This document shows, piece after piece, positions 9,539-40,902 of a stretch of DNA of 64,000 nucleotides. The notes below the pieces were generated by a model. It was not told the DNA's origin. It ran no database searches and worked only from the letters and a program-made list of their open reading frames with translations. Source of the DNA: Mobula birostris (Eukaryota); assembly GCF_030028105.1 (NCBI RefSeq), contig NC_092381.1, positions 71,450,505 to 71,514,504 on the forward strand. The letters are read 5' to 3'. Each line of letters opens with the position of its first letter. Positions within the stretch are counted from its first letter, which is position 1. Made by a program: the position numbers and the translations under genes.

Positions 9539-12059
9539 CAGGGTTGCCAGATTGAAATTTTAATTTAAAGCCAAACAATACTTTTTAAAAAGCCAGATAA
9601 AAGCCCACTATTTTCCCCATACTCACAACACAAGAAAAGCTCCAGATCCAGGTTATTACTATCCTCTTCACTGAAATCAGTGGAACATACGGCATAAACC
9701 TTGTCCGATGTGAAGTTTTTTTTTAGCATTTCTGGAGATGCAGTAAAGTCTTTGCAACATTTGCTTGAAAGCAATACTTCTGTCCTCATTCTCACAATAC
9801 CATCAAGAAGATTCAGCTGCATTCTGTTTCTTGCCTTCCTTTTAACGGAGGATACAAGAGAAAATATCCTCTCAACTGCAGCATTGCCGACAGGGGTTAT
9901 TAGACAAGTAAGGGCAAAGGTGGCGACCTCTTTAAATGCCTGATGCTGAAGTACACCAAGCCAAAACTCTTCAGTGTCTGTCGAGAGTCCATCTTTCTTA
10001 AATGGAGCTGCTTCTTTCCAATCCACAAAAGGCATTTTTCTCTATTCTTCTTCAATTGTGCTGACGTTGTTTCCTGCAAGGTGTATAAAGGGTAACTTGG
10101 AATACATGGGCCTTGAAGCTTGATTTAAAATTATCACATGGCTCAATTTTGATAAACTTGCAAATGTATCTCCCGCTGACGCAAGTCTACATGTAACTTG
10201 ACTCAGAGCTTCTTCTAGCATAGACATACATCTTTCTTCGACATTTTTTATTTCTAGATGGGCCTCAGCACTCTTCTTCTGCTGTAGGAACTTATCACAT
10301 GCTGTTAAGAATTTGATACAAAATCAACTTCATTAATATTTTTTTCTGTATTGGCATCATACAGTCTGATCTGAAGATTCTTCTGGTGTAAGAATATTTG
10401 TTGCTACATTTCATGAGGATCAGCTTTGGTTTGCTGAAAAAGGCTGTTCAGTCTTTCAAATTCCTGCACAACAGGTGTTGCAAACTCAAAGAACAAGTTT
10501 TTGTAGTCTGACAACATTTCCTTTAGGAGTCTTGCTTTGAATTTTGTATCAAACTTTCAGCAGAAGTGAAATAAGCCCTTAGCTCTTCCCAGTTCATCAA
10601 AATATTAAGCATGACCTTTCCACACACAAGCCACTGAGTAGACGCAGGCTTTTCAAGGGGGAGGGGGGCAGTTAGGGTTAGCTCAAATTCTGTAGCTGTG
10701 TTCATCACTCTAAACAATTCTTTGTATGCTTCCTGTCTTAATTCACTATGGCAAAACCAATTGGGTATTTCTGACAGTGAAAATCCAATACTTGATGGTA
10801 GCTTGGATACTGCATATTGAATGCACAGTGCCAGCGAATGACAGATACATTTGAGTTGCACACAGAAAGGAGACACATCTTTTAGTCTAGACCACACGGA
10901 GTTGTTGCACCCAACCATGTTTGATGCACCATCCGATGCAAAACCAATGCAATTTGCAAGACCCTGGCCACATCTTTTGATTTCCTTGTCAATCAAATTG
11001 AATATGTTTTTTCCTATAGCCTCTTGCACCGGAATTAAACCTAGAAATCCACTTACAATTTCCTTTGTCCTATCACTTAAAAATCGACAAATACGCAAGT
11101 GTTTTTGTGTTGAAGTGTCAGTAGATTCATCTACAAACAATATAATGATGGCATATTTCTTATTCCGAAAGTCATCAATGAGATCAGTTTTCAGTGCAGG
11201 CGAAATGATATTTTTGGTTAAGCATGCACATTTAGTTTTATGTAACTTTATGTGCTCCAGTGTGCTCCCATGCCCATGTGCTATCATGACTTCACTCAGG
11301 TGGTCAACTGTACGTATCGCACAATGGCAGGTCATGCTTACAGCAATTTGCAGCTCTGCTGCCTTAACCTTATCATTATCATGCCTAGGAGTCTTTGTTA
11401 CATTAAGTTGTGTCTGGCCTTTTGATCGAGTCCTCCGCTTGTGTTTCTCCGATTTTTCATGATCTGAAAGGTTGCTAGCTCTTGGTACAATGGTGCTGTG
11501 GCACAATTTACAATAAGCTGCCTCCAATCCATCAGCAGCCTTTTGGACCCATACAAGTGTTTCGTCCCATTTGCTATTGTACTTACGATTGCTATCATAA
11601 GAAGCTTTCCATTTCTTTAACGACATGGTCATGGGTGTTGATAATAAATGATTTATGAAAACAGCCGAAGGCATCACAGTTTCACCACAAAATGTTATTA
11701 TGTATAGAAAGTACACTTCACGTTCGATTTGTATGATTATAAATCACATCCGAAAACTTCGGAGCTCCAAGAGAAACTGCACTCGCCCGGGCGGGTTGGC
11801 ACGTGATCGTGTTGCCGACTTGCTGGTTGGCCGCTTCTTGCCCAGACTCTTGGCAGAAATATTGCCAAATGTAACTGACCAAAAAACATTTTTCTGAAAG
11901 GAAAATGTTTTAGAAAAAGGATGTGTGTAATTTTTGTGCAGATAATCTTAGCATGTAGAAAAGCCCAAAAAAGTCAAATGATATTTCTGGTGCTAACCAG
12001 ATTAGGAAGAAGCCAGCTTTCTGGAATTTGGCACCAAAAAAGCCAATCTGGTAACCCTG
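9539..12059 (-). mobile_element. Near full-length hAT DNA transposon (Blackjack/ZNF862-like) with a frameshifted transposase
   Basis: 16-bp TIRs cagggttgccagattg / caatctggtaaccctg. ORF 10523-11632 has a CKLC..H..H zinc finger, DESTD, SDGASNM and CICHSLAL. ORF 9565-10035 has the hAT dimerisation motif NAAVERIFSLV..KRKARNRM. Confidence 0.92.
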
Positions 12060-19960: not shown

Positions 19961-20111
19961 TAATCAATATCAAAGGATATATATTCCTCAAAGTATTCAT
20001 AAAATTATGTAAATTATAAGATTAGGCAGATTAGTAGACATACCTGCACAAGTTTGAACTATTCTATTAATGATTGCTTTTAAACAAATAAAAAATGTAG
20101 ATTATGATGAG

Positions 20112-21880
20112 GCAGGCAAGGACATGGCAGACCAATTGAATAATTACTTTGGTTCTGTCTTCACTAAGGAGGACATAAATAATCTTCCGGAAATAGTAGG
20201 GGACAGAGGGTCCAGTGAGATGGAGGAACTGAGCGAAATACATGTTAGTAGGGAAGTGGTGTTAGGTAAATTGAAGGGATTGAAGGCAGATAAATCCCCA
20301 GGGCCAGATGGTCTGCATCCCAGAGTGCTTAAGGAAGTAGCCCAAGAAATAGTGGATGCATTAGTGATAATTTTTCAAAACTCGTTAGATTCTGGACTAG
20401 TTCCTGAGGATTGGAGGGTGGCTAATGTAACCCCACTTTTTAAAAAAGGAGGGAGAGAGAAACCAGGGAATTATAGACCGGTTAGCCTAACATCGGTGGT
20501 GGGGAAACTGCTGGAGTCAGTTATCAAGATGTGATAACAGCACATTTGGAAAGCAGTGAAATCATCGGACAAAGTCAGCATGGATTTGTGAAAGGAAAAT
20601 CATGTCTGACGAATCTCATAGAATTTTTTGAGGATGTAACTAGTAGAGTGGATAGGGGAGAGCCAGTGGATGTGGTATATTTGGATTTTCAAAAGGCTTT
20701 TGACAAGGTCCCACACAGGAGATTAGTGTGCAAACTTAAAGCACACGGTATTGGGGGTAAGGTATTGATGTGGATAGAGAATTGGTTAGCAGACAGGAAG
20801 CAAAGAGTGGGAATAAACGGGACCTTTTCAGAATGGCAGGCGGTGACTAGTGGGGTACCACAAGGCTCAGTGCTGGGACCCCAGTTGTTTACAATATATA
20901 TTAATGACTTAGATGAGGGAATTAAACATAGCATCTCCAAGTTTGCGGATAACACGAAGCTGGGTGGCAGTGTTAGCTGTGAGGAGGATGCTAAGAGGAT
21001 GCAGAGTGACTTGGATAGGTTGGGTGAGTGGGCAAATTCATGGCAGATGCAATTTAATGTGGATAAATGTGAAGTTATCCACTTTGGTGGCAAAAATAGG
21101 AAAACAGATTATTATCTGAATGGTGGCCGATTAGGAAAAGGGGAGGTGCAACGAGACCTGGGTGTCATTATACACCAGTCATTGAAAGTGGGCATGCAGG
21201 TACAGCAGGCAGTGAAAAAAGCAAATGGTATGCTGGCATTTATAGCGAGAGGATTCGAGTACAGGACCAGGGAGGTACTACTGCAGTTGTACAAGGCCTT
21301 GGTGAGACCACACCTGGAGTATTGTGTGCAGTTTTGGTCCCCTAATCTGAGGAAAGACATCCTTGCCATAGAGGGAGTACAAAGAAGGTTCACCAGATTG
21401 ATTCCTGGGATGGCAGGACTTCCATATGAAGAAAGACTGGATGAACTGGGCTTGTACTCATTGGAATTTAGAAGATTGAGGGGGGATCTGATTGAAACGT
21501 ATGAAATCCTAAAGGGATTGGACAGGCTAGATGCAGGAAGATTGCTCCCGATGTTGGGGAAGTCCAGAACGAGGGGTCACAGTTTGAGGATAAAGGGGAA
21601 GCCTTTTAGGACCGAGATTAGGAAAAACTTCTTCACACAGAGAGTGGTGAATCTGTGGAATTCTCTGCCACAGGAAACAGTTGAGGCCAGTTCATTGGCT
21701 ATATTTAAGAGGGAGTTAGATATGGCCCTTGTGGCTACGGGGATCAGGGGGTATGGAGGGAAGGCTGGGGCAGTGTTCTGAGTTGGATGATCAGCCATGA
21801 TCATAATAAATGGCGGTGCAGGCTCGAAGGGCCGAATGGCCTACTCCTGCACCTATTTTCTATGTTTCTATGTTTCTATG
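20112..21880 (+). mobile_element. Young 5'-truncated CR1 LINE (RT domain plus 3'UTR)
   Basis: ORFs 20070-20534 and 20531-21781 form CR1 ORF2 with one frameshift (YLDFQKAFDKVPH, GVPQGSVLGP, KFADNTKL). (ctatgttt)n tail. Confidence 0.97.
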
Positions 21881-32698: not shown

Positions 32699-33680
32699 TG
32701 GGGGAGATCTTAAATGGATTTTTTGCATCTGTATTAACTTGGGAGATGGACAGAGTCTGTAAATGTGAGGCAATGTAGCAGTGAGGTTATGGGCCCTACA
32801 CAGATTACAAAGGAGGAGGCGTTTGCTGTCTTGAGGTAAATTAGGGTAGATAAATCCCCAGAACCTGACAAAGTGTCCTGTCAAGCTTTGTCGGAGTCTG
32901 GTGCAGAAATTGCAGGAGCTCTGGCAGAGATATTTAAAACTTGCTTAGCTACGGGTGAGGTGCTGGAGGATTGGAGGATAGATGATGTTGTTACATTGTT
33001 TAAGAAAGGCTCTAAAAATAAACCAGGAAATTACAGTAGATGTCAGTCAACCTAACATGAATAGTGGGAAAGCTATTGGAAGGTACTCTAACAGACCGGA
33101 TATATAATAAACAGAGACTGATTAGGGATAATCAACATGGCTTTGTGCACGGCGAGTCACGTCTAAACAATTTTATAGAGTTTTACAAGGAAGTTACCAG
33201 GAAAGTTGATGAAGGCAAGGCAGTTGATGCTTACATGGACTTTAGCAAGGCCTTTGACAAGGTCCCACATGGGAGGTTGGTAAAGAAGGTTCAGTTGCTT
33301 GGCATGCAAGATGAGGTAGTAAATTGGATCAGACATTGACTTTGTGGAAGAAGCCAGAGAGTGGTAGTAGGTGGTTGCCTCTTTGATTGGAGGCCTGTGA
33401 CAAGAGGTGTGCCTCAGGGATCGGTGCTGGGTCCATTGTTTGTCATTTGTATCAACAATCTGGATGATAAGATGATAAACTGGATCAGCAGATTTGCAGA
33501 TAACACCAAGATCAGGGGTGTAGTGGACAGCAAGGAAGGCAATTAAAGCTTGCAGCTGAATCTGGACCAGCTGGAAAAATGGATTGAAAAGCAGCAGATA
33601 GGATATAATGTAGACAAGTGTAGGGTATTATGGAGTACAGTAGGACAGAGAAAGTGGCATCACGGGTAGGTAGGGTCGAA

Positions 33681-34711: not shown

Positions 34712-35619
34712 NNNNNNNNNNNNNNNNNNNNNNNNNNNNNNNNNNNNNNNNNNNNNNNNNNNNNNNNNNNNNNNNNNNNNNNNNNNNNNNNNNNNNNNNN
34801 NNNNNNNNNNNNNNNNNNNNNNNNNNNNNNNNNNNNNNNNNNNNNNNNNNNNNNNNNNNNNNNNNNNNNNNNNNNNNNNNNNNNNNNNNNNNNNNNNNNN
34901 NNNNNNNNNNNNNNNNNNNNNNNNNNNNNNNNNNNNNNNNNNNNNNNNNNNNNNNNNNNNNNNNNNNNNNNNNNNNNNNNNNNNNNNNNNNNNNNNNNNN
35001 NNNNNNNNNNNNNNNNNNNNNNNNNNNNNNNNNNNNNNNNNNNNNNNNNNNNNNNNNNNNNNNNNNNNNNNNNNNNNNNNNNNNNNNNNNNNNNNNNNNN
35101 NNNNNNNNNNNNNNNNNNNNNNNNNNNNNNNNNNNNNNNNNNNNNNNNNNNNNNNNNNNNNNNNNNNNNNNNNNNNNNNNNNNNNNNNNNNNNNNNNNNN
35201 NNNNNNNNNNNNNNNNNNNNNNNNNNNNNNNNNNNNNNNNNNNNNNNNNNNNNNNNNNNNNNNNNNNNNNNNNNNNNNNNNNNNNNNNNNNNNNNNNNNN
35301 NNNNNNNNNNNNNNNNNNNNNNNNNNNNNNNNNNNNNNNNNNNNNNNNNNNNNNNNNNNNNNNNNNNNNNNNNNNNNNNNNNNNNNNNNNNNNNNNNNNN
35401 NNNNNNNNNNNNNNNNNNNNNNNNNNNNNNNNNNNNNNNNNNNNNNNNNNNNNNNNNNNNNNNNNNNNNNNNNNNNNNNNNNNNNNNNNNNNNNNNNNNN
35501 NNNNNNNNNNNNNNNNNNNNNNNNNNNNNNNNNNNNNNNNNNNNNNNNNNNNNNNNNNNNNNNNNNNNNNNNNNNNNNNNNNNNNNNNNNNNNNNNNNNN
35601 NNNNNNNNNNNNNNNNNNN
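34712..35619. other. Assembly gap (908 N)
   Basis: Run of N. It probably hides most of the Gypsy 5' LTR. Confidence 1.
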
Positions 35620-37454
35620 GTAAGATCTATAAAGTATAATCGCATATGGTGTACTGTCTGTTATTTGGCGTGGTGGGGTACATCACAAAGCATCCTCACA
35701 AACTTGATTACCCAGTTTGGCAGGGCTGAAGGCTGCTCCCCCTAGACGGAAGTGAGCTGAGTGAGCCTGAGACTTACCAGGGGCTACGTTTGGGGGCTTC
35801 GTCTGAGATTTGATTCCGTGGGGTGCTGTGTGATTGTCCTGTTTAAATCAGTACTGCTGTGTCTCTGTGGGATTGCGGTTAGTAATGTGTGTCTCTGGGA
35901 TTGCTGGTTATTACTGCATGCGTGTTAGGTGGGGTCTTTGTTCGAGTTCAGACTAGCGCTGACGAGTTGGTGGTGGGACTGCCAGTGTCTATTGGTGCCC
36001 CGGGTGAGGCGGGACCATGGGCTGTCCATACTGATAGGAGAGACAGGAAAGAGTGGTCCGATTCAGAGGTAGTGTCTGCGAATAAACTTTCCAGCTATGG
36101 CAGGCTCCACCTGGCTTTTGGGATAATGTCCACCCCTAAAGGGGCCGAGGCATACGAGACGTGGACGGAGCAGATCTCTCAGTTGTTAGATGAGTGGCAG
36201 TGCTCGGTTGAGGGAGAGCGACAGGGATTGGTTGAAAGTTTGAGTAGACGGGCTGTTGATGGTGTTAGAACTATCAGGTTCAATTACTCCGTAGTGACGG
36301 CTGCCAGTTATCTGAAGTGGGGGGGGGGGGAAATGCGTTTGGTTCGACTGGAAGTAAAATGCAGCGTCTGGGGGGCTTTCCATACCTGTGTCAGGAGATT
36401 GAGGAAAAGCTTTCAGTGTATCTTCTCTGGCTAGGGGGCAGCTAAATTGCTTGTAGTGCCAGGGGGATCATTTCAGGGGATCAGCCCCTCCTTCAGTTCT
36501 TCAGCTGATCAGAGAGGTGTTGGGAAACTTAGTGGAGGCCCAGTGGGGGAACGGCTTGGGGTCTTTGGGGGAGCACGTTCCCAGCAACGTACCAAGGAAC
36601 TCCCGAAAGGAACAGACCCTATTCCTGAAGGCTTAGAGGGACCACGCCCCCGTGTGTCATTACGGATAGATAGAAGCTATGCTAAAGCCATTCTCGACAC
36701 CGGGGAGCAGGTCAAGTTGTTGTACAGTTCGTTTTACAATCGGTTTCTGAAGCATTTACCCTTGACAACATTAAGGGCACTGGAGATTTGGGGTACCAGT
36801 GCCAGTGATTATCCAGAAGGCAATTATTGGTCAGTAAAACTGGTGTTCATAGGGGCATTATCTGTGCACCCGGTGTTTCGAGCCGCTTGTGAGGACGCAT
36901 GTAGCAGTCTTGGGCCGGTACCGAATTTAAACGACAGCCGATTGTGGTACGGTCAGGGGGAAGTATCTGAGGGTGAGACCCTCTTAGTAGACGCTCTGAA
37001 CTACCATGAAGGAGGGGAGTTGACTGCTGAAGACACCTCGGTGAGACAGAGGTCGCGGTGACTGGACCCTGTAGCCATGGAAGATGTAGGCAGCGTGTGT
37101 GTGGATTATAGGACTCTGAACAGGTGCACTATCATTGACTAGAATACGGCCCTGAGGGCCGAAGATGCGATGGTCTGTTTGTATGGTGCGACGTGGTTCA
37201 ATGTGCTGGATCTGAGGAGTGGATGTTGCCAGATCCCGATGAGTGAGGCCGACAAAGAGAAGACGGACGGTACAGGTTCCCTAGGATTCTTCCGGTCCGA
37301 AAAGATGTCACAAGGTATATTCAGACCCCCTGCAACCTTCCCGCAGGGCATGATGAAGATCATGGTGGATGTGGAGGTGTTTGGAGTTCTGGCGTATGTG
37401 GATGATTGCCTAGGATTTGGATTCGCCTTGGGGGATGATAATGTGCGGCGAGTT

Positions 37455-37830
37455 CCGGAGCCCGGGACGACCATTGAAGACTTGGAGTTCACGCTCAAAG
37501 TGGAGATGGGAAATAGAATTCCAAGGCGAAACTGCGGTCATTTACTGATGAATTAATGCAGAGAGATGAAACAATGACCAACCTTCGAAAGGATCAGCAG
37601 AAACTCAAGAGATCGATCCAGAACAGATTGGAAGAAGCTGCTGGTGTAATTGCGTCCCAGATGGAGATGGACATGAAGCATGGGTCAGAACTGCTGAGAC
37701 TGGGGCGAGAGTTGGAGGAGTCGGAGAAGAAGCTGACGTCTCGGTTGCCGGAGGCTGAAGAGGCTGCAGAGGCAGCCCAGGCCAAGTGCTTCAGTTTGGA
37801 GAAAAGCAAACAGCAGCTACCAATCGAGGA
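37455..37830 (+). pseudogene. Captured, internally deleted fragments of a sarcomeric myosin heavy-chain rod
   Basis: TIEDLEFTLKVE../..KLRSFTDELMQRDETMTNLRKDQQKL, RLEEAAGVIASQMEM..ELLRLGRELEES and ELEESEKKLTSRLPEAEEAAEAAQAKCFSLEKSKQQL match three separate MYH rod segments. Confidence 0.8.
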
Positions 37831-38354
37831 AATGGGGAAGAATATAGATTTGAAGGATGATGTGCGGGATGTGTGGTACATGCTGCCTTTCGCTAACTTC
37901 CCCTTGATTGAGGAAGAGACTTTTGGCCCTTCTCCCACTGAGTCAGGGGTAGTGAGGAGGGTTGGCTGCGGGCAGCCTGGGTTACTGCAGGACCCTGAAG
38001 GAAAAGAAGCAGGGCCCCGGACACAGGACAGAGGGCCCCGGACACAGGACAGGGGCTCCGAGTTGCAGTGGGGGCATGAGTGAGAGATTGAGAGAGGAGT
38101 TGGCAAGCAGACCCAAGGTATCCCCAGTAGTGTCCGAGCCTGAAGGGTTTAGGTGAGGGGGTACAGAGGTCTCGGAGGATTAGGAAACTCTCAGATAGGT
38201 TGGCCTATGTAGCGCCCATGGAACAGGGCGTAAGGTCTACTGTTAGGGGAGCAATGTGACTGTTTGTACCTGGATTGGGTTTTTGTGTCTGCAGGAAGGG
38301 TTGGCGAGTTATTTAGAAGTCATGAGGACATGACTTTATTTGGTGGGGGGAGAG

Positions 38355-39068
38355 TGTAAGGGGTTTTTTCTACTGCGGAGGCTAACAAAATGGCTTCTTT
38401 GTTATGTTTTAATTAAAATGGCTTTTCTGTAATAATAACTGTGATGTAAGGAGTTCTCTCTCTCTCTTTCTCTCTTTCTCTCTCTGCTTGTTTGGGTTAT
38501 ATTATTAATAAGAGAGAAAATGAACCAATTGGGATAGATGTTATTCTTTCTTGTGTGTCTGTAAACTACTGTTTTCGTGGGCTTTGGGGCAGAAGGCGGA
38601 TGGGGGCAGACAGAGAAGACTCAATGCTGTAAGCTGGGCAACGGGATGGACCCCAAGCGGGAGTCCGAGGCCCAGGGTTTTGGGGAGGAGAACCGAAAAG
38701 GACTGGACATGCTGGATGCGCTCTGGTTGGTCCCAGGCAGTGGGTCGAGGGGGTGAGAAGGGACCGACTAGTGGAAAGAGGACTCCGTTAATCGAGTTCC
38801 AACTGTGTGCACAAAGTGGTTGAACTTTGATAAGTTTGGCGCCTTTCACCTTCCTTTTATATTTTATCTCTATTAATTACATAGTTCCAGTAAGATCTAT
38901 AAAGTGTAATCAGTTAATCGCATATGGTGTATTGCCTGTTATTTGGCAGGGTGGGATACATCACACAGCACCCACACAAACTTGATTACCCAGTTTGGCG
39001 GGGCCAAAGGCTGCTCCCCCCAAGACGAACGCGAGCTGAGCGAGTCTGAGGCTTACCAGGGGGTTACG
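38355..39068 (+). repeat. Gypsy 3' LTR
   Basis: Starts TGTAA directly after the PPT and ends ttacg. The last ~180 bp match the 5' LTR remnant. Confidence 0.9.
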
Positions 39069-39990
39069 TAGGAAATATCCTCTCCACATCTCCTCTAACT
39101 TTCAACATTCAATAGGTTTCAATGAGATTCCCTCTCATTCTTATAAATCCTAGCGAGTACAGGCCTAGAGCCAACAAACACTCCTCTTATAACAAGTCTT
39201 TCAATCTCAGAATCATTTTAGTGAACCACCATTGAACCCTCTCCAATATCAGCATATCCTTTCTTAGATAAGGGGCCCAAACTACTCATAATATTCCAAG
39301 TGAGGCCTCACAAGTGGCTTATAAAGCCTCGGAATTACATCTTTGTTTTTATATCCTAGATCTCTCAAAATGAATACTAACATTGCATTTGCTTTCCTTA
39401 CCATTGACTCAGCCTGCAAGTTAACCTCTAGGGAATCCTGCACAAGGACTTCCAAGTCGCTTTGCACCTTGGAGTTTTGAATTTTTTCCCCTTTTAGAAA
39501 ATAGTTTATGCTTTTATTCCTTCTACCAAAATACATGACCATGCATTTCCTGACACTGGATTCCATCTGCCTCTTCTCTGCTAATTCTCCTAATCTGTCT
39601 CTGTCTTTCTGCAGGCTCCCTGCTTCCTCAACATTACCTGCCCCTCCACCTATCTTCATATCATCTGAAAACTTGGCCACAAAGCCATCAATTTCATCAT
39701 CCACATCATTGACATACAACGCAAGAAGAAGTGGTCCCAATACCGACCCCTGTGGAACTTCACTAGTCACTGGCAGCCAATCAGTAAAGGCTCCTTTTAT
39801 TTCCACACATTTCCTCCTACCAACCAGCCAATACTTTATCCAAGCTGATATCTTTCCTGTAACACCATGGGTTTTTATCTTGCAAACTAGCCTTACGTAT
39901 GGCACTTTGTCAAAGGCCTCTTGAAAATCCAAGTACACAACATCCACGGATTCTCCTTTGTGTATCCTGCTTCTTATTTCCTCAAAGAAC

Positions 39991-40902
39991 TGCAAGGCTC
40001 ATGACAGAACCTCCTTCCCTAAGGCTGGCACCTGATGGCCCATGGACATCTGGAGAACTTGACTCCGGGCTGGTAGAACCTGAGACATTCTGGAAAATTA
40101 GAAACAGACCTGATGCTCTCGAGATAGAGCTGGAAAGTTCAGAATAGAGCATATAACAGGAGCATTGTGTATGTAACTCAGGAACAATGCATATGGCTCA
40201 GAAAATTGCACATACCTCAGAAACATTGCATATCATAGGAGACCTAATGAACCTTGTTGACCTAGAGAACCTTGGAAAAATTCTTGAATGTAGACTGGAG
40301 AAGCTCGGAAATAGTCTTGGGGCACTCAGAACGTAGACTCGGGACACGAACTGAGTAAAGAAGTCATCCTTGCCTTCAGCAGACTGATATCCAAGCTGCT
40401 GTTGTATCTCCACAGGGCCCATAGGTGGTGGAGTCTTTCTGCCACAGTGAATGCTGGCCATGACTGAACCCAGGTGCAGAGGAACAGCAGGACTCTGTCA
40501 TGGTAAGGGCTGGAAACAATAAAACACAAACGCGAAGGAACTGCAGACTCCGTCACAGTGAGCAGTGGCATCAATTGAATGGACGTGTGGAGGAACAGCA
40601 GGCTCCCATGTAGAGACAGAAGCAAGAGGTTATACATAGGAATTCCAGCAGAGCATTGGTGGCACAACCGTATGACACCACGAGCAAATCATTCTCCATA
40701 CAAGGACTCTGCAATCAGTGCTAAATGGGAGTCTGCATTATATAATCATAGGAAGCAGAGAACCCATGCCAATGACAATTAACTTGACAATATTAAACAG
40801 AAAGCATAAGGGATTAATGGCTCTTGTTAAAACAATAATCAGTAAACACAGGTGCTCAAGAAATCTACAAGCCCAGTGCTCCACGGCACACTGCAGAGGC
40901 AC
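39991..40902 (-). mobile_element. Non-autonomous sushi-like LTR element with one permuted LTR
   Basis: Minus strand: LTR ending ctgcacctgggttc..actgtggca (40440), then gaaagactccacc ATG GGC CCT, short internal region, PPT agggaaggaggttc, then tgtcatgagccttgcag. Confidence 0.5.

What the first reader, a model, noticed from the sequence alone, without database searches (positions are those of the whole stretch)
37455..37830. Gypsy retrotransposon carrying a stitched-together myosin heavy-chain rod inside its pol region
Seen: between the RT remnant (..YVDD..) and the pol tail, where RNase H and integrase should be, the sequence encodes a coiled coil. From recalled sarcomeric MYH sequences it matches three non-adjacent rod segments in native order: (i) DIDDLELTLAKVEKEK..DETIAKLTKEKKAL, (ii) [29 protein letters not shown], (iii) [35 protein letters not shown]. 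Segments ii and iii are fused at their shared ELEE motif. No introns are evident, and the later part stays in one frame with the Gypsy tail (ORF 37556-38083). Inference: a host myosin mRNA (MYH16/MYH7B-like) was captured by RT template switching and then shortened by microhomology deletions. It may have spread as a non-autonomous family encoding a chimeric coiled-coil product. Host-gene capture by vertebrate Gypsy elements is seldom described.
Basis: partly seen in the sequence, partly recalled or inferred. Interest (0 to 1): 0.85.

Follow-up and report, generated by a model that had tools for sequence, protein, structure and literature searches.

The report
Jumping gene carrying spliced myosin fragment
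This is one decayed copy of a crippled jumping-gene family that carries an intron-free piece of a host muscle-myosin gene, likely picked up once by a copying slip, and that now stands in at least about 240 places in this genome, a known kind of accident seen on an unusually large scale.

Summary
Confirmed. Window 37464-37829 is 88.5% identical (324/366 nt) to six exons of one host myosin gene (G000:C28:18.02-18.20 Mb) and crosses four exon junctions without introns, so the source was spliced RNA. The donor is a divergent MYH16-related paralogue; the true MYH16 lies on C11. The element is a non-autonomous Gypsy LTR retrotransposon: 240 loci match a myosin motif, and 43 aligned copies fit one capture followed by nested deletions. 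Older copies keep RNase H and about 976 nt from ten exons. Correction: the myosin did not displace RNase H or integrase. It replaced about 55 nt of an element whose integrase-less junction also occurs in myosin-free sisters. Both switch points show 10/11 and 10/12 nt microsimilarity, as in known LTR-mediated retroposition (PMC5131818). No amino-acid-level selection (p=0.83), so the cargo is likely a passenger; the pol-myosin frame stayed open more often than chance (stops p=0.03), which is unexplained. The family also occurs in Mobula birostris and four other coded organisms. This scan noted it before in two other genomes; I found no paper on it.

The parts
35620..35788 (+). 3' end of the 5' LTR (its start lies in the N gap 34712-35619)
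   Evidence: 83.8% identical over 173 nt to 38890-39062; end read
35790..35808 (+). primer-binding-site-like stretch; likeness to a tRNA-Pro primer site is recalled, not tested
   Evidence: sequence directly after the 5' LTR
35886..36434 (+). gag remnant, PNMA type, internally deleted and frameshifted
   Evidence: Pfam PF14893 E 1.2e-8; frames
36435..37142 (+). protease remnant and shortened linker up to the RT start
   Evidence: Pfam RVP E 0.17, weak; deletions of 159, 60 and 99 nt against older copy L121 in 13-14 of 16 copies
37143..37463 (+). RT remnant with YVDD, then a deletion of about 570 nt net that removes the rest of RT, nearly all RNase H and the start of the captured myosin
   Evidence: Pfam RVT_1 E 1.2e-4; comparison with L121
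37464..37624 (+). captured myosin, segment i: end of host exon Z, all of exon A, start of exon B; private frameshift between 37494 and 37517
   Evidence: 27/31, 14/15 and 102/115 nt identical to C28:18017269-18075739; crosses two splice junctions
37625..37714 (+). captured myosin, segment ii: end of exon F and start of exon G, joined to segment i by a 429-nt in-frame deletion
   Evidence: 79/90 nt identical; crosses F|G; deletion present in 33 of 43 aligned copies
37715..37829 (+). captured myosin, segment iii: last bases of exon H and exon I, reached by the G-to-H jump
   Evidence: 102/115 nt identical; jump in 41 of 43 copies, and the other two have a larger deletion across it
37830..38083 (+). 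pol C-terminal tail with the integrase-less junction; stop at 38081-38083
   Evidence: matches myosin-free integrase-less copies L157 and L158 from the junction on
38342..38354 (+). polypurine tract
   Evidence: sequence directly before the 3' LTR
38355..39068 (+). 3' LTR, 714 nt, TG start, end decayed from CA
   Evidence: other copies end in CA with 4-bp target duplications

Best explanation
The stretch is an intron-free piece of a host MYH16-related myosin gene inside a non-autonomous Gypsy LTR retrotransposon, likely captured once when reverse transcriptase switched from the element's RNA onto co-packaged myosin mRNA and back, and then likely carried as a passenger through further rounds of copying by helper elements. 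Shown: the donor gene, loss of introns, sense and in-frame orientation, shared junctions, microsimilarity at both switch points, nested deletions, LTRs with 4-bp target duplications, at least about 240 copies. Inferred order: (1) an integrase-less variant arose by an in-frame deletion; (2) about 55 nt after its RNase H were replaced by about 976 nt of myosin from ten exons, with a jump of about 620 nt inside the mRNA; (3) later microhomology deletions gave subfamilies, of which the window's (429-nt deletion) has at least 153 copies; (4) copying ended and copies decayed. Inferred too: myosin mRNA met the element's particles in cells that feed the germ line.
For: Exon-only match to one gene over 180 kb, 88-93% nt in most copies against 70% for fast myosins and 75-83% in short patches for the C11 MYH16. 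Same 5' junction in the 4 copies that reach it; myosin ends at host position 1338-1356 in 42 of 43 alignments. Microsimilarity 10/11 nt (5'), 10/12 (3') and 10/12 (G-to-H jump), against 1.5e-5 and 7e-5 per random register. 3' junction equals that of integrase-less sisters and not the integrase-bearing tail; integrase-bearing relative L160 has Integrase_H2C2 and rve. Copy counts 153 and 240 with 0 control hits. TSDs in L120, L122, L027, one mismatch in L125. N/S of inherited versus singleton changes 108:42 versus 332:122, p=0.83.
Against: The pol-myosin frame has no stop shared by most copies over 36355-38077 (one codon at 8 of 30), inherited stops are rare (1 of 151 versus 18 of 472, one-sided p=0.034) and nine of nine junctions in that frame are in frame, which a pure passenger does not predict. 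In the RNase H tree the chimeras do not nest inside the integrase-less copies (9 rows, weak support). Where the donor is expressed is untested.
Confidence: 0.85

Rival explanations
1. Same capture, but the chimeric frame was under selection while the family spread: the myosin coil was translated as part of a Gag-Pol fusion, or an open frame protected the RNA from nonsense-mediated decay, and this helped the family multiply.
For: Nine of nine junctions in the pol-myosin frame are in frame against a microhomology null of 38-50% in pol DNA and 52-76% in the myosin; stop depletion p=0.034; older copy L120 has gag and protease in one frame.
Against: No selection on residues (p=0.83; p=0.49 for the myosin alone); two thirds of the cargo was deleted; gag and protease frames differ in 10 of 14 scored copies; a slippery heptamer is present in only 2 of 24; the myosin-free sister family spread as well. 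The junction set was picked after seeing the data.
Confidence: 0.25
2. The capture began at DNA level: an element sat in an intron of the myosin gene, a read-through transcript was spliced onto exon Z, and only the 3' junction came from template switching, as in retroviral oncogene transduction (recalled).
For: The 5' junction falls within 3 nt of a possible acceptor of exon Z.
Against: The parent has no GT donor at the junction, and the junction has 10/11 nt microsimilarity. The true start of exon Z was not fixed.
Confidence: 0.1
3. A LINE-made processed pseudogene of the myosin inserted into an existing Gypsy copy, which then spread.
For: The genome is rich in LINEs, and the insert is spliced.
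Against: The insert is an internal coding piece cut at both ends, with no poly(A) and no target duplication, and it replaces about 55 nt of the element at microsimilar sites.
Confidence: 0.03
4. Generic coiled coil of a Gypsy polyprotein, or an assembly artefact.
For: Pfam finds no myosin family in the window ORF.
Against: 88.5% nt identity to one host gene across splice junctions; 40 of 40 scored hits span the stretch on many chromosomes; contigs of four other organisms bridge the junctions.
Confidence: 0.005

Closest known systems
LTR-mediated retrocopies of animals (Tan et al. 2016, PMC5131818; passages and section 5 read)
   Same: Partial spliced mRNA replaces part of the internal region of an LTR element; microsimilarity at switch points; sense strand, often in frame; can be re-copied as a non-autonomous element.
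   Different: In the parts read, two Drosophila retrocopies had more than one site (18 sites for nine retrocopies). Here one capture gave at least about 240 copies, several deletion subfamilies and persistence in several species. Supplements, which may give copy numbers, were not read.
HERV-K capture of FAM8A1 (passage in PMC5131818)
   Same: Vertebrate LTR element with a captured, processed host gene and microsimilarity at the fusion points.
   Different: Endogenous retrovirus, not Gypsy; copy number not given in the passage read.
Maize Bs1
   Same: LTR retrotransposon with spliced host-gene fragments in place of pol parts.
   Different: Plant; low copy number and several donor genes as I recall.
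Gene capture by Drosophila telomeric LINEs, nxf2/piwi/aub (PMC13534243; passages read)
   Same: Captured host coding fragment at about 90% identity carried by a spreading element family.
   Different: Non-LTR elements; cargo is piRNA-pathway genes and acts as anti-silencing. A myosin gives no such obvious benefit, and the donor shows no burst of amino-acid change since capture (4 synonymous to 1 non-synonymous).

Membership tests
Ty3/Gypsy LTR retrotransposon (non-autonomous) | Two LTRs with TG...CA ends, PBS and PPT | tested here: met
   Window LTR pair 83.8% over the 173 nt outside the gap; TG/CA ends and LTR pairs of 85-91% in L120, L122, L125
Ty3/Gypsy LTR retrotransposon (non-autonomous) | Short target-site duplication | tested here: met
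   4-bp TSD in L120, L122, L027; one mismatch in L125. Not testable for the window copy (N gap).
Ty3/Gypsy LTR retrotransposon (non-autonomous) | Domain order gag-PR-RT-RNase H-integrase in the parent | tested here: met
   gag, PR, RT in the window; RT then RNase H in L121; RNase H then integrase in L160, whose RNase H, tail and LTR are 76-83% like the chimeras. Pieced from several copies.
Ty3/Gypsy LTR retrotransposon (non-autonomous) | RT phylogeny places it in Metaviridae | not tested
   No RT tree with named references was built; PNMA-type gag and domain order are the basis.
LTR-mediated retrocopy (Tan et al. 2016) | Introns of the parent gene are absent | tested here: met
   Four junctions crossed in the window copy; nine host exons matched in order in L121 plus the end of exon H
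LTR-mediated retrocopy (Tan et al. 2016) | Replaces part of the element's interior; microsimilarity at both switch points | tested here: met
   L121 5054-6029 replaces about 55 nt of L157/L158; 10/11 and 10/12 nt
LTR-mediated retrocopy (Tan et al. 2016) | No L1-type hallmarks (poly(A), TSD around the insert) | tested here: met
   Junction views
LTR-mediated retrocopy (Tan et al. 2016) | Co-transcription with the element | tested here: inconclusive
   No listed run is on record as RNA
MYH16 orthologue (donor gene) | Groups inside the MYH16 clade with shark myosin-16 | tested here: not met
   On 111 residues the C11 gene pairs with shark myosin-16-like (100/97); the donor lies outside the 15 MYH16 rows on a long branch, on the MYH16 side of the split from skeletal/cardiac myosins (99/96); midpoint root, long branch, so placement is unsure. 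Identity 57-59% to MYH16s, 51-56% to others.
Domesticated or functional captured gene | Purifying selection on the encoded protein | tested here: not met
   N/S inherited versus singleton p=0.49 and p=0.83

The most novel reading that the evidence does not exclude
A vertebrate Gypsy lineage that had lost integrase took up a myosin rod in frame at the integrase position and was selected to keep that frame open for much of its spread, so that a Gag-Pol-myosin coiled-coil fusion or its translatable RNA helped it ride on helper particles. The capture would also record germ-line or gonadal expression of an unnamed, divergent MYH16-related myosin.
Probability: 0.15. Interest if true: 0.8.

Novelty: new variant of a known kind. 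Interest (0 to 1): 0.55.

Why it matters
It is a clear vertebrate case where one LTR-mediated gene capture founded a lasting, high-copy family. The stacked deletion series is a natural record of how non-autonomous elements shrink, and allows a test of whether open frames are kept without selection on the protein. It predicts that a sarcomeric myosin paralogue, for which my two protein searches found no close database match, is expressed in or near the germ line. It also warns annotators: copies are being called as genes (P0001, XP_072120675.1, 'uncharacterized protein', Mobula birostris), and hundreds of myosin-like fragments can disturb read mapping for the donor.

Tried and rejected
Fast-myosin cluster on C28 and the C3 myosin as donor: only 68-75% nt in short patches. 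C11 MYH16 as donor: 75-83% in short patches. Programmed -1 frameshift between gag and pol: heptamer in 2 of 24 copies. In-frame deletions in the myosin as proof of selection: by my count 16 of 17 large deletions are in frame (two pairs merged by eye), but several are alignment-split, and long microhomologies there are 64-76% in frame anyway (p 0.005-0.06). Whole autonomous parent: L163 and L164 are interrupted by other repeats. RNase H tree did not resolve the parent type. Expression: no RNA holder listed; the 'RNA?' labels are guesses, so one search is used only for presence. Orthologue of the donor in protein databases: best full-length hits 61-67% on exon G, none at E 1e-5 for exon Z; weak evidence. 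Atlas gave myosin-tail clusters only, with recognition below its threshold. 'Thousands of copies': the 1349 and 1311 first-look candidates were mostly unscored and are not copy numbers. Look-ups by sequence and by genome in earlier findings were empty. Nine paper searches showed no paper on this family; most subscription journals and Repbase/Dfam were not searchable.

Full report
Observation. Three-frame translation shows an RT remnant with YVDD at about 37395, then a coiled-coil stretch, then a Gypsy-type tail. The ORF 37517-38083 matches sarcomeric myosin rods in the PDB at E 3.7e-9 to 3.7e-6, in three separate pieces in native order. Pfam finds PNMA-type gag (E 1.2e-8), RVT_1 (1.2e-4) and a weak protease upstream, and no myosin family in the ORF itself. 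The element runs from a 5' LTR whose start is hidden in an N gap (visible 35620-35788) to a 714-nt 3' LTR at 38355-39068, with PBS-like and PPT sites. The interior is only about 2.6 kb.

Donor gene. Searches of the own genome for myosin rods gave a fast cluster on C28, a gene on C3, and two genes with extra introns on C11 and at C28:18.0-18.2 Mb. Only the last matches well: window 37464-37829 aligns to exons Z, A, B, F, G, H and I-type blocks (my labels; six exons with substantial matches or junction bases plus the H end) at 324 of 366 nt. It crosses four splice junctions whose introns are 38,847, 19,459, 2,120 and 23,825 nt; the H|I crossing rests on few bases here and is clearer in L121. Fast myosins reach about 70% and the C11 gene 75-83% in short patches. 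The rod exons found by tblastn read without stops. Database relatives of exon G are mostly named myosin-16-like at 61-67%. In a 111-residue tree the C11 gene pairs with shark myosin-16-like, and the donor is a long branch outside the MYH16 rows but on their side. So the donor is a divergent MYH16-related paralogue; its head domain and start were not fetched.

Family. A DNA search with 37400-37900 scored 40 of 1349 candidates; all 40 span nearly the whole query, at 89-91% apart from the window itself, on many chromosomes. A 30-nt pattern over the junction of segments i and ii gives 153 loci at up to 1 mismatch. A 30-nt exon I pattern gives 240 loci at up to 2 mismatches, one of which may be the host exon; both controls were 0. 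That pattern catches 36 of my 43 held copies, so a few hundred copies is my estimate. Full copies have TG...CA LTRs of 85-91% identity and 4-bp TSDs. Thirty copies of the window's subfamily differ by 10.5% on average, minimum 5.3%, so copying appears to have ended long ago; these 30 were the best hits to the window, not a random sample. P0001 from Mobula birostris is a related copy called as a gene. Contigs of four other coded organisms in four studies bridge the same junctions, for example X3 record 28, X17 record 13, X2 record 17 and X11 records 4 and 5.

History. Older copies L121, L124, L161 and L162 keep RNase H and join it in frame to the start of exon Z at one shared point. L121 holds about 976 nt of myosin. 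Of 43 copies aligned to the spliced donor, 41 share a jump from exon G to the end of exon H, and two have a larger deletion across it; 33 share the 429-nt deletion; others have 24- to 222-nt deletions. Relatives without myosin are of two kinds: L159 and L160 have integrase (Pfam E 2e-18 and 3e-10 for L160), while L156-L158 run from RNase H straight into the tail. The chimeras carry the integrase-less junction and not the tail of the integrase-bearing copies. The myosin therefore replaced about 55 nt of an element, or returned to a template, that already lacked integrase. A 9-row RNase H tree did not settle the parent.

Mechanism. The 5' switch has 10 of 11 matching bases between element and mRNA, the 3' switch 10 of 12, and the G-to-H jump 10 of 12; random registers reach this at 1.5e-5 and 7e-5. 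The 429-nt deletion has an 11-nt exact repeat. There is no poly(A) and no duplication around the insert. These are the marks of microsimilarity-dependent template switching described by Tan et al. (PMC5131818; passages and section 5 read), who report LTR-made retrocopies in zebrafish (5 of 7), chicken (4 of 10), mouse and human, and further copying of some as non-autonomous elements. Co-packaging of the mRNA in cells that feed the germ line is inferred, not shown.

Function. Inherited changes in the subfamily have the same N/S ratio as singletons: 16:9 versus 97:40 in the myosin (p=0.49), and 108:42 versus 332:122 over protease-RT, myosin and tail (p=0.83). Gag and protease motifs lie in different frames in 10 of 14 scored copies (30 examined), and there is no conserved slippery site (2 of 24). 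Against a pure passenger: the pol-myosin frame has no widely shared stop over about 570 codons while the other two frames have 47 and 49 over the whole interior; RT and myosin motifs are in one frame in 22 of 22 scored copies; inherited stops are 1 of 151 against 18 of 472 (p=0.034); and all nine junctions in that frame keep it. With nulls of about 0.5 for pol and 0.7 for myosin that is roughly 0.004 by hand, on a set chosen after the fact. I read this as a likely trace of selection for an open frame early in the lineage, probably at RNA level. Expression could not be tested.

Novelty. The mechanism is known. Nine paper searches (listings only) showed nothing on this family. PMC13534243 (passages) gives a precedent for captured fragments that target the donor through piRNAs; PMC6402096 (passages) gives background on MYH16. 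No supplements were read; those of PMC5131818 may bear on copy numbers. Two earlier notes of this scan describe what appears to be the same family in other genomes; they are not independent support, and 'thousands of copies' is not what I measured here. Verdict: real, a new variant of a known kind, interest 0.55.

Noticed in passing
G000:C28:17.97-18.23 Mb (L108-L114, L128-L155): Divergent MYH16-related myosin gene with very long introns, about 0.6 Mb from the fast-myosin cluster and separate from the true MYH16 on C11; no database protein above 67% on exon G.
   Followed up: partly
L156, L157, L158: A myosin-free, integrase-less sister family whose RNase H reads in frame into the pol tail; 1838 first-look candidates for the RNase H query, 40 scored.
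   Followed up: partly
L031-L034, L037, L038, L053 (e.g. G000:C16:85153809-85154483): Long intron-less matches to the non-muscle myosin tail model with internal stops, probably processed pseudogenes.
   Followed up: no
L089 (G000:C28:19278211-19278486): Decayed myosin exon with stops at the edge of the fast-myosin cluster, not part of the element.
   Followed up: no
L091 (G000:C4338:216618-216770): GC-rich, frameshifted sarcomeric myosin exon next to an N gap on a small scaffold.
   Followed up: no
window 9565-11743 (-): Two ORFs (158 and 406 aa) that look like a hAT-type transposase remnant; likeness judged by eye.
   Followed up: no
window 20058-21781, 32840-33627, 39282-39998: CR1/L2-type LINE remnants, one with a 431-aa open RT frame; the Gypsy copy sits inside such a LINE remnant.
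   Followed up: no
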